Shown: positions 15,701 to 33,700 of the stretch, piece after piece
Numbering within the stretch: the stretch's first letter is position 1
How the letters are laid out: each line of letters opens with the position of its first letter
DNA from: Somniosus microcephalus
Taxonomy: Eukaryota
DNA: 64,000 nt
Direction of reading: 5' to 3'
Assembly (NCBI GenBank): GCA_052327205.1
Contig: CM126225.1
Span: forward strand, 7,936,001 to 8,000,000
Made by a program: the position numbers and the translations under genes
The notes under the pieces: model-generated
What the model was told of the DNA's origin: nothing
The model's input: the letters and a program-made list of their open reading frames with translations, nothing else
The model's database searches: none

Positions 15701-18700
15701 TCAACCCTCTGTTACCTCATCAAAAAACTCAATCAAGTTAGTTAAACACAATTTGCTTTTAACAAATCTGTGCTGGCTTTCCTTAATTAATCCACACTTG
15801 TCTAAGTGACTGTTAACTTTGTCCCTGGTTATCCTTTCTAAAAGCTTCCCCACTACCGAGGTTAAACTGACTGGCCTGTAGTTGTTGGGTTTATCCTTAC
15901 ACCCGTTTTTGAATAAGGGTGTAACATTTGCAATTCTCCAGTCCTGGCACCATCCCCGTATCTAACGAGGATTGGAAGATTATGGTCAGTACCGCTGCGA
16001 TTCCCTCTTTAACCTCTCTCAGCAGCCTAGGATGCATCCCATCCAGTCCTGGTGACTTATCAACTTTAAGTTCAGACAGCCTTTCTAGTACCTCCTCTAT
16101 CAATTTGTATCTCATACAGTATCTCCACTACCTCTTCTTTCACTATGACTTTGGCAGCATCATCTTCCTTGGTGAAGACAGATGCAAAGTACTCATTTAG
16201 TACCTCAGCCATGCCCTCTGCCTCCATGCGTAGGTCTCCTTTTTGGTCCCTAATCGGTCCCACCCCTCTTCTTACTACTTGTTTATTATTTATATGCCTA
16301 TAGAAGACTTCGGAATTCATGGCCTACTGTAATAAATTGTTTGATCTTTGAGCGTTTGCTGTACAACTGTACATAATTTGGCTGCTGGCTGAATGATTTG
16401 AGTAGAACTCAAATTCAACTCTAAGAGAAGAGTAGCATTTGAGTTGGCAAATAAATTGATTCTGGGTTCCTTTTAATTTCAAGTACCAATGCCTAGATTG
16501 GAACAAAAAAAACACTTAAATCTGACTCATTACCCACACAGATGGAAAGACAGAACTACCAAGAGTAACTGGTATTTAACACTCAAAAATCAACACCAAC
16601 AATCCAAGTAAGCAGGGAAGTTAGCTGTATAAGTCAATGAAAAAAAGCAATACCGACACTAAATAGAGGAGCTGAAAGCACCGATTATCTTAAAATTAAT
16701 GCAATTTTTCCACTTCACTCCTTTAAACGACGAGACACACCTTCAACGAGAGTGCTGACAGCCATGAGGGCATCTTCCTGCACACCTCCAGAGCCAGCAG
16801 TGCTCTGGAACATCCTTAGCAGCGATGCCATCACCACATCTGAAATCTGCAGTGCGTCCTGGTGCTGGACCTTGCGCAGGACATTCTAAAACCAAACAGA
16901 AAAGTAACGTTTATTAAAAAAGGAAATAAATGTATTCACTTTGGGAAAAAAAAAGCCTTCAGATTCATTCATAATCACCATCATGTTTCTGCGTGGTGCA
17001 TGAACTTGTCATCACCAGACATAACCTAAGCAACAAATTTAAGAAAACAATGTATTACACACAAACCCAAGTTAATTCAAAGTACTAATTTAACAGGTCA
17101 AATAACTGCCTTGCAATTCCCTTGGATACCGATAATATTCTACCTTAAAGCTACTTGTTTTATTTGCATTTCACCTGCTCCAATAAGCTAATTCAAAACG
17201 GTCATGTTGAAGGCCACCCTGCAGAGGCCAAGATAGAATATTGATGAAAAACATGTTATCTAATGACAACAGCCACGGGGAGCCCAGCAAAGCACAGAGA
17301 CAGTAAAGTGTGGTCCGCCACAAAATCAAACCCAACCAATATCACCAGAACATAAAGATATATGGGAGAAAAACCAAGTTACCTGTAGAGTAGCACACAG
17401 CAGAGACTGAAGATCATTGTACTGAATTCTGTCCGAGGTACTTTGAATGTGAGACTGAATGGAACAAAAAGCAAGATTAGCAAGGACTTTTATAGCCATT
17501 TTAATACAACATCCTTCGGCATATAAAAGGTAGGTGGGGTACTGCGTGACGTGTCACATTGTCACTGTGGTCGCCTGGAACTCATTTTGATCCCCTTTAG
17601 GGGCCAGAGGATTTTTTCACATTCCCCCGAATTGGTCAAGGATTTTTGTGTTTTTATTTGCCTCTCCCAGATTATGTGGTTACTGATGGGCGAGGCGATC
17701 ACAATGTTCAGTTGCATCATGACTGTATGGGATAGGCCCTGTGGGCCAGTTGGTTTTTTCTTGTCCATCACATTTGCATGTTGGTATCTTTTTGGTGCCT
17801 ATTTGCCAGAGGAAATGCAGCAAATAATTCTCGGAGACAATAATGACTGGATTAGTAAATATATAGGCTAAATACTATTGCACCCCACTATTTTTTGTAT
17901 TTAATCACTTCTCCTTGAAGTCTCCCTGCATACTTTCTATCTACATCAATGTTACATCACTTCATGGCAGCATCTTAGGGCATAGGTGTGTGCTTTGCCC
18001 TTAAGTGGCAGGATGTGGGTTTCCACCTACAATTCTCAATTAATTTTCACCCCCATTATGTTTCTCAAATGCTCAAGTATTTTAAAGCACTTTTGCCAAA
18101 GAAACCTCAAAGAATGTGAAAAGGAATTTAATAGTTGAGACAGGTTAAACAGCAAAAAGCACATAACTAGATTATAACTTTGGGCATTCAGTTCTCCTAT
18201 TGGCACTTTGGCTGCAGTTGATCAGTCATTAAATTGTGGAAAAATATTTGCTGTCCACAGTATTCAGAGCGTGAAAGAATTAAAATTGGACACACAAGTA
18301 TATCTGTTTAACCTCAACAGGAACAGTCAACGAAAGCTTTTATATACACCACCCACTTACACACCACATAACTCCATTTGCAATACTTTCCATCTTCCCA
18401 CACTAACATTTTTGAGCCAGAATAGCAATTTAAGATAAAATGTGGCAGGTGAAAAAGATTTAAAAAAAAGACAGTAGGTTGGCATCACCCTGCAAGTATA
18501 CTTCACATACCTCCATTTGCAATACTTGCTGTAGCCTTTCCATGATGACCAGAGTTGTTTTCTGCACTGCTGGGTAGCAGTCCTTGGCACTGTTCTTGAC
18601 TATCTCCATCAGTGCCTCATATGCAGCACTCCTTAAGTTATTCTGGTGCCCATCGGGCCTAAAGAAGAGCATTTTACTTAGTGGAGCAAATCTTCATTTT

Positions 18701-30700: not shown

Positions 30701-33700
30701 AGTTTAAGTAGGAAGGGACTATTTGGGGAAAAAAAACACATTGATGCAGCTATATTCCCAGATATCGATTCCTGGGATTTTACTTGATTGACTCGGTTTG
30801 ATGCTATCCGTCATTTCACATCCAGATGGAGGCCCATCAAACCTGCATTTTTAAAAATTAATTTATGGGGTCAGAGCGTCGTTGGCAAGGCCAGCATTTG
30901 TTGCCCTTGAGAAGGTGGTGGTGAGCCGCCTTCTTGAACCACTGCAGTCCGTGAACGAGTGCAGAACGCAGCTGAAAAACTGGTATCACCACAGGAAAGA
31001 TGGCCTCTTACCTCTTTGTCAAAGTTAGCTTTGGTGAATTCCAAGGAGTTGAGCAGTGCATTTGTCGCAGCTAACTTCACATTGTTGCTGGGCTCCTCCT
31101 TCCGCATTCCTTGAATAATCGCAGTAAGAATTTCATTCGATTTGTCCTGTAGTTGCTCAGGGTCCTGAAAAAGCAAAAAAGTTGCTCAACTTTTAAGTTT
31201 TCCCCTTCATTTTCTGGCTCATGTTATAAGTATTCTTTAAAGATTATGTAATGCGCTAACCTGCCAAGTTCCATGGGCAGACTCACTAGGATTACTGAAT
31301 TAATTGGTTATCCGAATATATTCCTACATTTTAACTAGTTTTCACAAAGTAGACTGGTCAGTTTAAAACTGCACAAGATTATTTTATTACAAAACAAGAG
31401 CCCACTTTCAAGTCTGCGTTAGTGCCATTTTAAAATGCAACAACTTGAAAGCTATGGAATACAGTGCAGTGACTAACTTCAATTTTCAAACTAATATTGC
31501 AGGAGTATACACAAGGGTACCACTACAAAGCATTAGATACTTTTCTCAGAGCCTCTGATAATTCAAAAAACTCATCTCAAATTAATAGTGACTCCATGAT
31601 GACTTATTTCATCTTCCATAGAGGTCTGCCATTTTAGATTGCACCTCGAGCTTCTCTCAAGTTTTATTATGGGGAGGTCCTGTGCACAGACTTAGGGTCA
31701 TTTGCAGGGAATTCAGAAGTTCCGACTGGTCCAAAATTGCCACCTTACTTCAGCTCAAGGTGCAAATAGGCACCCAAAACACTAAGCTTCCAGCAGAGCA
31801 GAATTGAACAAGTCAAAATACTGGAGTTTCTACCCAAGTGCTGCCTCCTCCCTTTGCTAACAGATAAATGCACACCCAGTTAGTGCAAGGTTAATACCCC
31901 TGTATAAACAATAACTTACCATTGCTAAGCATGCAAGATACTATGTAACTTATGAAAAAACCAGCCAATCTGTCTCAGCTGTAATCATACACATCAGTTA
32001 ATCAGTGTGGTGCATGATTTCTCATCATTGCAGATATGACCATTTTTATATTACTTAACACGAAACTCTAATGCTGGTAATAAGACCTCAATATTCAAAA
32101 ATAGATTGAAAATCTAGTTCAATGTTTGGTATCCAACTTAAACCCGAGGCCCCATTAATTTTGCAGAGTTGACTGTGATGGCAAGTGTACTACAGACAAT
32201 GCCTTTGGAAGCACCTCAGACTGATGAGAGCTAATTGTAATGAAGATTAAGAGCATCCTTCAGCTGCATATAGGCTGCATCCACCATGGCACGAAGCCCT
32301 ACCAGCCAACTGCTGGCCTTTATAAACCCTCCAACACTGGGGAATACCCCAGCCAGACTGGCAAATTCAAATGCAATCTTGCACTGTCATGTTGAATATT
32401 GTTGCTGAATTCACCCTGCCTTAGCATAACAGAAACTAGTTTATACTTGGAAAACCACTTCCACTGGAAGGGCTTATAAATATAATTACTGCTGAAGTAA
32501 AAGTGGCCAGCATCAGTTCTTCAGTGTGATCTCATATATACATCAATGCCAAAGGGCGACAGTGGGTTAAAACTCAGGTGCGCTCCATTGGCTGTGCCAT
32601 TTCTTTTCAGATCAATACACATTATGCAGCTCACATCAGAAACATTCTCAGTGACATGCTCCATACAAAATGAAAATTAATACTCAATGGTTACTGCTAC
32701 TGCAACATAAACAGAGAAGTAGTACCAGTACCATATTTTCTAAAGCATAATTTTAAATAAAATACTCACTATATCCTGGCATATATAACCTATAGCTTCC
32801 AAAGTAGCCTCTTTCATATGTTCGGTGCTGTTAGGGTTCGTTACGTTTGCAACCAGATGAGGAATGAGTTCAGGCCATTGAACAACAGGAATCTCCGCAC
32901 ATGCGATTCCTGCAACACACTGAGATGCAGAGCTGGGCCTGTAGGTCTCTGTTCCCAGAGTTTGCAAGACCTGTGAGAGCAGTAAAAAAAAATTTAAAAC
33001 AAAGTTTAGTTCTTCAAAGATGAGTAACTAGTATTTGCAACAATTCAGCAGGTTCTAGAGTTCAATTAAATTCCATTGCAGAAATATGTCATAAGCTAAA
33101 AGATAGAGAATAGGACTGTAGTCACATACCCCCACACTTTAATTAGGTTAGGGAGGCACTAGTGGAAACTATTAACTTGTTAAGCTTAGAACTAGGTGGT
33201 CACTAGAGAGAAATTTAAAGAAGATGGGGAAAAAGATAGAAAAATACTTAGGCCAGTAAAGAAAGCAAAACCACTGACTAAAGAAAGCTTTGAAATATAG
33301 TACACGCACCACTAACCAAATAGCTGGTATTTTAAATACAACCATGTATTTTACAGCTTGCATGAGTGATTCCCACGAGCCCACAAAACATATACACTAT
33401 GTAGGTCAGATCCTGCACTTGGGAACTGCACAATACCATCTTGATGTGACACAATACAGCCATTGCATATATTAATATATGCATTTTGAACCACTATTCT
33501 ACTAGCATTCATAGTTTTATACAGTTCAGTGTCCTACAGCACAGGGACCATAAACAAACCAAAATAGTGGAGAATATTTGCTTTGGTTCCTAGTGTGGTA
33601 CTCGAAACTCTCAAGTAAAAATTCACAATAGTACAGATGCTGTATATCAAACAGAAACAAAGAATAAAATAATTGGAAACACAGCAAGTCAGCATCTGTG

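What the first reader, a model, noticed from the sequence alone, without database searches (positions are those of the whole stretch)
16955..32035. Multi-copy box C/D snoRNA family hosted in KPNB1 introns, all guiding the same 18S rRNA site from the D' box
Seen: four 66-75-nt elements on the gene strand, one each in introns 4, 5, 8 and 14 (31968-32035, 30604-30678, 27977-28049, 16955-17020). Each has a terminal stem, C box RTGATGA, the invariant guide (C/T)CATGCACCAC one nt before D', a C' box and a D box. Everything else, including the D-side guide, has diverged, which indicates selection on the D' guide only; the C/T variation keeps pairing through G-U. Established: the guide is complementary (11 bp) to the conserved 18S motif GUGGUGCAUGG, and the D+5 rule selects the G equivalent to human Gm1328 / yeast Gm1271. 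In human this site is guided by SNORD32A from RPL13A using its 3' (D-box) guide, and I know of no snoRNA in human KPNB1. Inference: a separate, differently built guide family for this site, amplified intron-to-intron in a nuclear-import gene. I cannot exclude that non-mammalian snoRNA surveys have already catalogued it.
Basis: partly seen in the sequence, partly recalled or inferred. Interest (0 to 1): 0.85.

Follow-up and report, generated by a model that had tools for sequence, protein, structure and literature searches.

The report
Known rRNA-guide snoRNAs in KPNB1 introns
Four introns of the importin-beta gene of a cartilaginous fish each carry a small guide RNA predicted to direct one conserved methyl mark on 18S ribosomal RNA; the same family in the same gene was already published for chicken, so this mainly extends a known arrangement to an older lineage.

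Summary
Four box C/D elements lie sense in KPNB1 introns 4, 5, 8 and 14. Each D' guide pairs over 11 bp with this species' 18S rRNA and selects G1285, the human G1328 equivalent. A guide-agnostic scan finds these 4 and nothing in 200 shuffles.

It is not a new family. Shao et al. 2009 list chicken GGgCD25a/b with the same 5' guide, the same site and KPNB1 as host, and note its split from human U32A. Zebrafish has the expressed D' form in eef2b. Fly, plant and yeast guides are built alike, so the D' form is likely the old one and human SNORD32A the derived one.

Increments not found in print: KPNB1 hosting in a cartilaginous fish; three more copies in an RBM5-like gene; and an RPL13A with two SNORD33-type guides but no SNORD32 type. 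Expression and methylation are untested here. Earlier scan notes held no match.

The parts
31968..32035 (-). Box C/D snoRNA copy in KPNB1 intron 4: 5-bp terminal stem, C box 32028-32022, guide 32017-32007, D' CTGA 32005-32002, C'-like, D CTGA 31978-31975. All boxes consensus.
   Evidence: no listed substitution inside it in a related organism's contig
30604..30678 (-). Copy in intron 5: 6-bp stem, C box 30671-30665, guide 30660-30650, D' CTGC (non-consensus), D CTGA 30613-30610. Closest by eye to chicken GGgCD25b (29 of 30 nt at the 5' end, 12 of 12 at the 3' end).
27975..28050 (-). Copy in intron 8: C box 28044-28038, guide 28033-28023, D' CTGA, D box CGGA 27984-27981 (non-consensus; may be weakly expressed or decaying).
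16955..17020 (-). Copy in intron 14: C box 17015-17009, guide 17003-16993, D' CAGA, D CTGA 16962-16959, 73 nt from the 3' splice site. Best Rfam match is fly snoMe18S-Gm1358 (40.5 bits, cut-off 50).
9474..47438 (-). Host gene KPNB1 (importin beta-1): coding exons 1-21 mapped, open 876-aa frame; the last exon carrying the end of the stop codon was not mapped.

Best explanation
These are four intronic box C/D snoRNA paralogs of the published GGgCD25 family (zebrafish 'SNORD32', D'-guide form), predicted to be cut out of KPNB1 introns and to guide 2'-O-methylation of 18S rRNA G1285, the human G1328 site. Shown: boxes, sense intronic position, 11-bp complementarity to this species' 18S and the D'+5 position. 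Inferred from established box C/D biology: release after splicing and exonucleolytic trimming, assembly with 15.5K/NOP56/NOP58/fibrillarin, and methyl transfer to the nucleotide paired five bases upstream of D'. Inferred history: the single D'-guide form is the ancestral vertebrate guide for this site. It sat in KPNB1 before cartilaginous and bony vertebrates split, was copied between introns and into a second host (an RBM5-like gene here, eef2b in zebrafish), and was replaced in mammals by RPL13A-hosted SNORD32A.
For: Chicken GGgCD25: 2 isoforms, 18S-G-1286, 12-nt 5' guide, host KPNB1 introns 4 and 7 (PMC2653536 Table 1 and supplements 2 and 5). The intron-5 copy matches GGgCD25b at 29 of 30 5' bases and the zebrafish SNORD32 at 27 of 30 (by eye). 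The zebrafish RNA is in a list filtered for expression and assigned to RiboMeth-seq site SSU_1328 through D' (PMC7668251 supplement 4 and passages). Own 18S: 11-bp duplex, -18.1 to -20.9 kcal/mol, target G1285, two bases 3' of the U1283 picked by this genome's SNORD33 copies, the same spacing as human U1326/G1328. Sub-cut-off Rfam matches to fly RF00533 and plant RF00300 show the same C box-guide-D' layout. Yeast snR40 uses D' for Gm1271 (PMC4344503 passages). No D-box-type guide for this site was found in the genome (0 exact pattern matches) or in the RPL13A locus, so this family is the only candidate found. In one related organism's DNA contig, 34 listed substitutions fall in 31403-32143 and none inside the 68-nt intron-4 copy (about p=0.03 by my hand arithmetic; 25 further rows were not shown).
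Against: No expression or methylation data for this species: two RNA-seq runs laid 0 reads on the intron-4 stretch, which is no test. No Rfam hit reaches a gathering cut-off. Three of the four copies have one non-consensus D or D' box, so some may be weak or dead. Orthology to the chicken copies rests on by-eye sequence match and shared host. Chicken intron numbers (4, 7) differ from these (4, 5, 8, 14), and I could not test whether the chicken gene model is offset by one exon. The genome pattern searches were exact-match and give lower bounds.
Confidence: 0.88

Rival explanations
1. Only one or two of the seven genomic copies are active guides; the others (intron-8 copy with a CGGA D box, RBM5-like copy with broken C and D boxes) are decaying duplicates. 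This is compatible with the family assignment and differs only in how many copies work.
For: Non-consensus boxes. The third RBM5-like copy has GTCATGA in place of the C box and no CTGA D box. Zebrafish C and D boxes of active SNORDs are nearly always consensus (passage).
Against: All 7 copies keep the 10-nt guide core exactly while flanks are unalignable and whole-element identity is 54-83%. Long neutral decay would have hit the guide. D' boxes are known to be lax.
Confidence: 0.4
2. KPNB1 hosting in the cartilaginous fish and in chicken/lizard arose by independent moves of a mobile snoRNA rather than by shared ancestry.
For: The family does change host: eef2b in zebrafish, RBM5-like gene here. 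Shao et al. found cognates only in chicken and lizard, not in frog or four mammals (supplement 3).
Against: Two independent landings in the same gene out of thousands are improbable (inference), and the intron-5 copy is nearly identical to chicken GGgCD25b at both ends.
Confidence: 0.05
3. A categorically new guide family, not catalogued before.
For: No Rfam gathering-level hit. No report for cartilaginous fishes surfaced in the listings.
Against: Published in chicken with the same host and target and in zebrafish.
Confidence: 0.02
4. The invariant guide is kept for another target (mRNA, snRNA, tRNA, or a second rRNA site as yeast snR40 has) in addition to or instead of 18S G1285.
For: Seven copies look like more than one site needs. 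Yeast snR40 uses the same D' guide for a second 18S site.
Against: Within the rDNA unit the only other pairings are 10 bp with a G-U pair in a spacer and 8 bp in 28S. Multi-copy guides are common in fish. snRNAs, tRNAs and mRNAs were not scanned.
Confidence: 0.07

Closest known systems
Chicken GGgCD25a/b (Shao et al. 2009, PMC2653536; passages, section 10, supplement hits and part 1 of supplement 3 seen)
   Same: Host KPNB1, multiple intronic copies, single 5' (D') guide, 18S G1286 = human G1328, near-identical 5' 30 nt and 3' end.
   Different: Four copies here against two; listed introns 4 and 7 against 4, 5, 8 and 14; reported only for chicken and lizard; no second host reported.
Zebrafish 'SNORD32' (PMC7668251; passages and supplement files 4 and 5 seen, files 13-17 not searched)
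   Same: Same C box-guide-D' layout and sequence (27 of 30 at the 5' end by eye); site SSU_1328; expressed.
   Different: Host listed as eef2b, one copy in the minimal list.
Drosophila snoMe18S-Gm1358 (RF00533), plant snoZ221/R21b (RF00300), yeast snR40
   Same: D'-box guide for the same 18S G (alignments; snR40 passages).
   Different: Scores are below the family cut-offs (40.5 of 50; at most 30.8 of 44). The likeness is mostly boxes plus guide, so common descent versus convergence is not resolved. snR40 is a multi-target guide.
Human SNORD32A/U32A (RF00133, with SNORD33)
   Same: Same target site (G1328), shown by knock-out and rescue in 10.1101/2024.11.18.622494 (passages).
   Different: Uses the D-box guide, carries a second guide for 28S A1511, is hosted in RPL13A and belongs to the SNORD33 Rfam family. 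The window copies score at most 25.4 bits against RF00133, without aligning the guide.

Membership tests
Box C/D methylation-guide snoRNA | 5' C box RUGAUGA and 3' D box CUGA closed by a terminal stem | tested here: met
   C box 4 of 4; D box CTGA 3 of 4 (intron 8 has CGGA); stems of 4-6 bp
Box C/D methylation-guide snoRNA | At least 9-10 bp complementarity to rRNA starting at position 2 upstream of D or D' | tested here: met
   11 bp to own 18S in 4 of 4 copies, target G1285
Box C/D methylation-guide snoRNA | Intronic, sense to a Pol II host gene (vertebrate pattern) | tested here: met
   KPNB1 introns 4, 5, 8, 14
Box C/D methylation-guide snoRNA | Accumulates as a discrete small RNA | tested here: inconclusive
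   0 reads from two RNA-seq runs on the intron-4 stretch, no test
Box C/D methylation-guide snoRNA | Target ribose is methylated in a guide-dependent way | not testable with these tools
   Needs RiboMeth-seq and knock-down; the site is mapped in zebrafish and human
GGgCD25 / zebrafish D'-form SNORD32 | Single D' guide for the 18S G1328 equivalent | tested here: met
GGgCD25 / zebrafish D'-form SNORD32 | KPNB1 intron host and sequence similarity beyond the guide | tested here: met
   Host. Similarity by eye only: 29 of 30 and 12 of 12 nt to GGgCD25b
GGgCD25 / zebrafish D'-form SNORD32 | Same (orthologous) introns as in chicken | not testable with these tools
   No chicken genome in the tools; the paper lists introns 4 and 7
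SNORD32/SNORD33 (RF00133) | D-box 18S guide, RPL13A host, Rfam score of 44 bits or more | tested here: not met
   At most 25.4 bits, guide at D', host KPNB1
snoMe18S-Gm1358 (RF00533) | Rfam gathering score of 50 bits | tested here: not met
   Best 40.5 bits (E 1.8e-4; E 0.008 genome-wide). It works like it but is not filed as a member

The most novel reading that the evidence does not exclude
This genome preserves the ancestral jawed-vertebrate state of a guide hand-over. The D'-guide family in KPNB1 (plus a second host, RBM5-like) does the G1328 job, while RPL13A carries two SNORD33-type RNAs in introns 2 and 3 that both point at U1326. Mammalian SNORD32A then arose from the upstream SNORD33 duplicate by a two-base register shift between guide and box D, and the KPNB1 family was lost: a datable case of one snoRNA family replacing another at a universally conserved rRNA site.
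Probability: 0.55. Interest if true: 0.42.

Novelty: new member of a known kind. Interest (0 to 1): 0.24.

Why it matters
As a family it is ordinary and published. The added value is evolutionary. It would push KPNB1 hosting from sauropsids back to the root of jawed vertebrates, it shows host-gene mobility within one genome, and it gives an outgroup for the origin of human SNORD32A, a much-studied RPL13A snoRNA. It also marks a gap in Rfam: this vertebrate D'-form family has no model that reaches cut-off, so automated annotation misses it.

Tried and rejected
Rfam at gathering level: 0 hits in the window. RNAalifold on the 7 copies: no consensus pairs, uninformative for box C/D RNAs. D-side guides against the rDNA unit: no credible target; snRNA, tRNA and mRNA targets were not scanned. 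Run search: no RNA holder listed. Two same-species RNA-seq runs laid 0 reads on intron 4, no test; only the intron-4 copy was laid. An RNA-guess contig set from another organism has a hole over the snoRNA, which proves nothing. A looser genome pattern gave 18 matches: 6 are known copies, and the other 12 of 12 lack a D' box and score at most 11.8 bits with my model, so they were rejected as chance. The model was trained on the 7 copies, so their 45-73 bits are not independent. Three of the four non-window RF00533 genome hits were checked with the model and gave no match; the fourth had no locus. Main-text and supplement searches of PMC3349704 gave nothing on this family; the main text of PMC6984369 gave nothing. 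Literature searches for RBM5/RBM10 hosting (listing only), cartilaginous-fish snoRNAs (20 of 108 listed) and GGgCD25 follow-ups (only the 2009 paper) showed no report of the increments. Makarova and Kramerov 2009, Kehr et al. 2014 and the snOPY database were not seen and may hold them. Earlier scan notes: 0 held all search words and none of the 8 shown concerns this family.
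Full report
Observation. The four elements are present as described on the minus strand. An exon model of the host with AG/GT boundaries at all 21 mapped coding exons gives an open 876-aa importin beta-1 frame and places them in introns 4, 5, 8 and 14, at 810, 390, 141 and 73 nt from the 3' splice site (Pfam IBN_N and HEAT). 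A scan that asks for a C box, any 10-mer complementary to this species' rRNA, a D'-like box and a D box returns exactly these 4 on the gene strand, 0 on the other strand and 0 in 200 shuffles. Three copies carry one non-consensus box (D' CTGC in intron 5, D CGGA in intron 8, D' CAGA in intron 14). Whole-element identity among the four is 59-73% and the flanks are unalignable.

Target. An rDNA unit from the same genome gives an 11-bp duplex for every copy, with a G-U pair at the far end for the T variants, and the D'+5 rule selects 18S G1285. This genome's SNORD33 copies select U1283, two bases upstream, the same spacing as human U1326 and G1328. The D-side segments have no credible rRNA target.

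Prior knowledge. Rfam has no hit at cut-off, but below cut-off the copies match fly snoMe18S-Gm1358 (best 40.5 bits, E 1.8e-4) and plant snoZ221/R21b with the same layout. The decisive result is Shao et al. 2009 (PMC2653536; passages, section 10, supplement hits and part 1 of supplement 3 seen). Chicken GGgCD25 has two isoforms, a 12-nt 5' guide for 18S-G-1286, functional homologs snR40/snR21/U32A,B and host KPNB1 introns 4 and 7. The paper states that human U32A/B is a double guide whose functions are held by single guides in chicken, and it found cognates in chicken and lizard only. I saw no passage showing that GGgCD25 itself was tested by RT-PCR. By eye, the intron-5 copy matches GGgCD25b at 29 of 30 5' bases and 12 of 12 3' bases. 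Zebrafish (PMC7668251; passages and supplement files 4 and 5 seen, files 13-17 not searched) lists the same D'-form RNA as 'SNORD32' for SSU_1328, hosted in eef2b, in a set filtered for expression. Yeast snR40 also uses D' for Gm1271 (PMC4344503 passages). Human U32A is described as using the D-box guide for G1328 (10.1101/2024.11.18.622494 passages). The D' form is therefore the widespread one.

Beyond the window. An exact pattern finds 6 copies in the 6.4-Gb genome: these 4 and 2 on contig C11. A third, box-damaged C11 copy appeared. All three C11 copies lie sense in introns of a gene with RRM, OCRE, zinc-finger and G-patch exons. The best protein matches of its OCRE exon are 'RBM5-like' of two skates, a sevengill shark and a chimaera (the top 4 of 120 listed), which also places the organism among cartilaginous fishes. 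The two intact C11 copies are 83% identical and share their 3' half with the KPNB1 intron-5 and intron-8 copies, consistent with one move between hosts followed by local duplication (inference; direction not determined). Twelve looser matches lack D' and were rejected. These counts are lower bounds.

The genome's single RF00133 hit lies in RPL13A. The locus holds SNORD33-type RNAs in introns 2 and 3, both pointing at U1283, and SNORD34 in intron 5; there is no SNORD32-type guide and no Rfam SNORD35 hit. A genome-wide exact pattern for a D-box guide of G1285 gave 0 matches. Xenopus likewise has two snoRD33 copies on one scaffold and its snoRD32 on another (PMC6984369 supplement rows; host and guide side not given). 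Rfam groups SNORD32 with SNORD33. Removing two bases between a SNORD33 guide and box D moves the +5 position from U1283 to G1285 (arithmetic). Together these suggest that mammalian SNORD32A is a re-registered SNORD33 duplicate that displaced the KPNB1 family. This is inference and was not tested on mammalian sequences; that human U32A sits in RPL13A intron 2 is recalled, and one search shows only that it lies about 650 nt upstream of U33.

Selection and expression. A DNA contig of a related organism spans intron 4 with 57 differing letters over about 1,030 nt. Of the 34 substitutions listed for it in 31403-32143, none falls in the 68-nt snoRNA (about p=0.03 by hand; 25 rows were not shown, so this is suggestive only). 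Two RNA-seq runs gave 0 reads on that intron, which is no test. Expression and methylation in this species remain untested.

Verdict. A real, well-formed, multi-copy snoRNA family, but a known one in a known host. The cartilaginous-fish KPNB1 hosting, the RBM5-like second host and the RPL13A state did not surface in my searches, which miss subscription papers and databases such as Makarova and Kramerov 2009, Kehr et al. 2014 and snOPY (not seen). New member of a known kind; interest 0.24.

Noticed in passing
G000:C11:220004540-220004612, 220000851-220000921, 219999667-219999739 (L008, L007; minus strand): Three further copies of the same family in three introns of an RBM5-like gene. Two are intact and 83% identical; one has damaged C and D boxes but an intact guide.
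   Followed up: yes
L017:1174-1246, 1577-1652, 4246-4320 (+): RPL13A hosts two SNORD33-type RNAs (introns 2 and 3) and SNORD34 (intron 5). No SNORD32-type guide and no Rfam SNORD35 hit were seen in the locus.
   Followed up: partly
L017:220-291 (-): A tRNA gene with a CCA anticodon (Trp) lies about 250 nt upstream of the RPL13A start codon, on the opposite strand (Rfam tRNA 67.6 bits).
   Followed up: no
window 55722-55821 (+) and 50513-50611 (-): Two similar repeat copies that pass a naive C/D box and stem scan but carry no rRNA guide; likely an interspersed repeat.
   Followed up: partly
window 43800-43964 (-): Weak match to uc_338/TUC338 (19.1 bits, cut-off 120, E 1.4) in KPNB1 intron 2; likely chance or a repeat remnant.
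   Followed up: no
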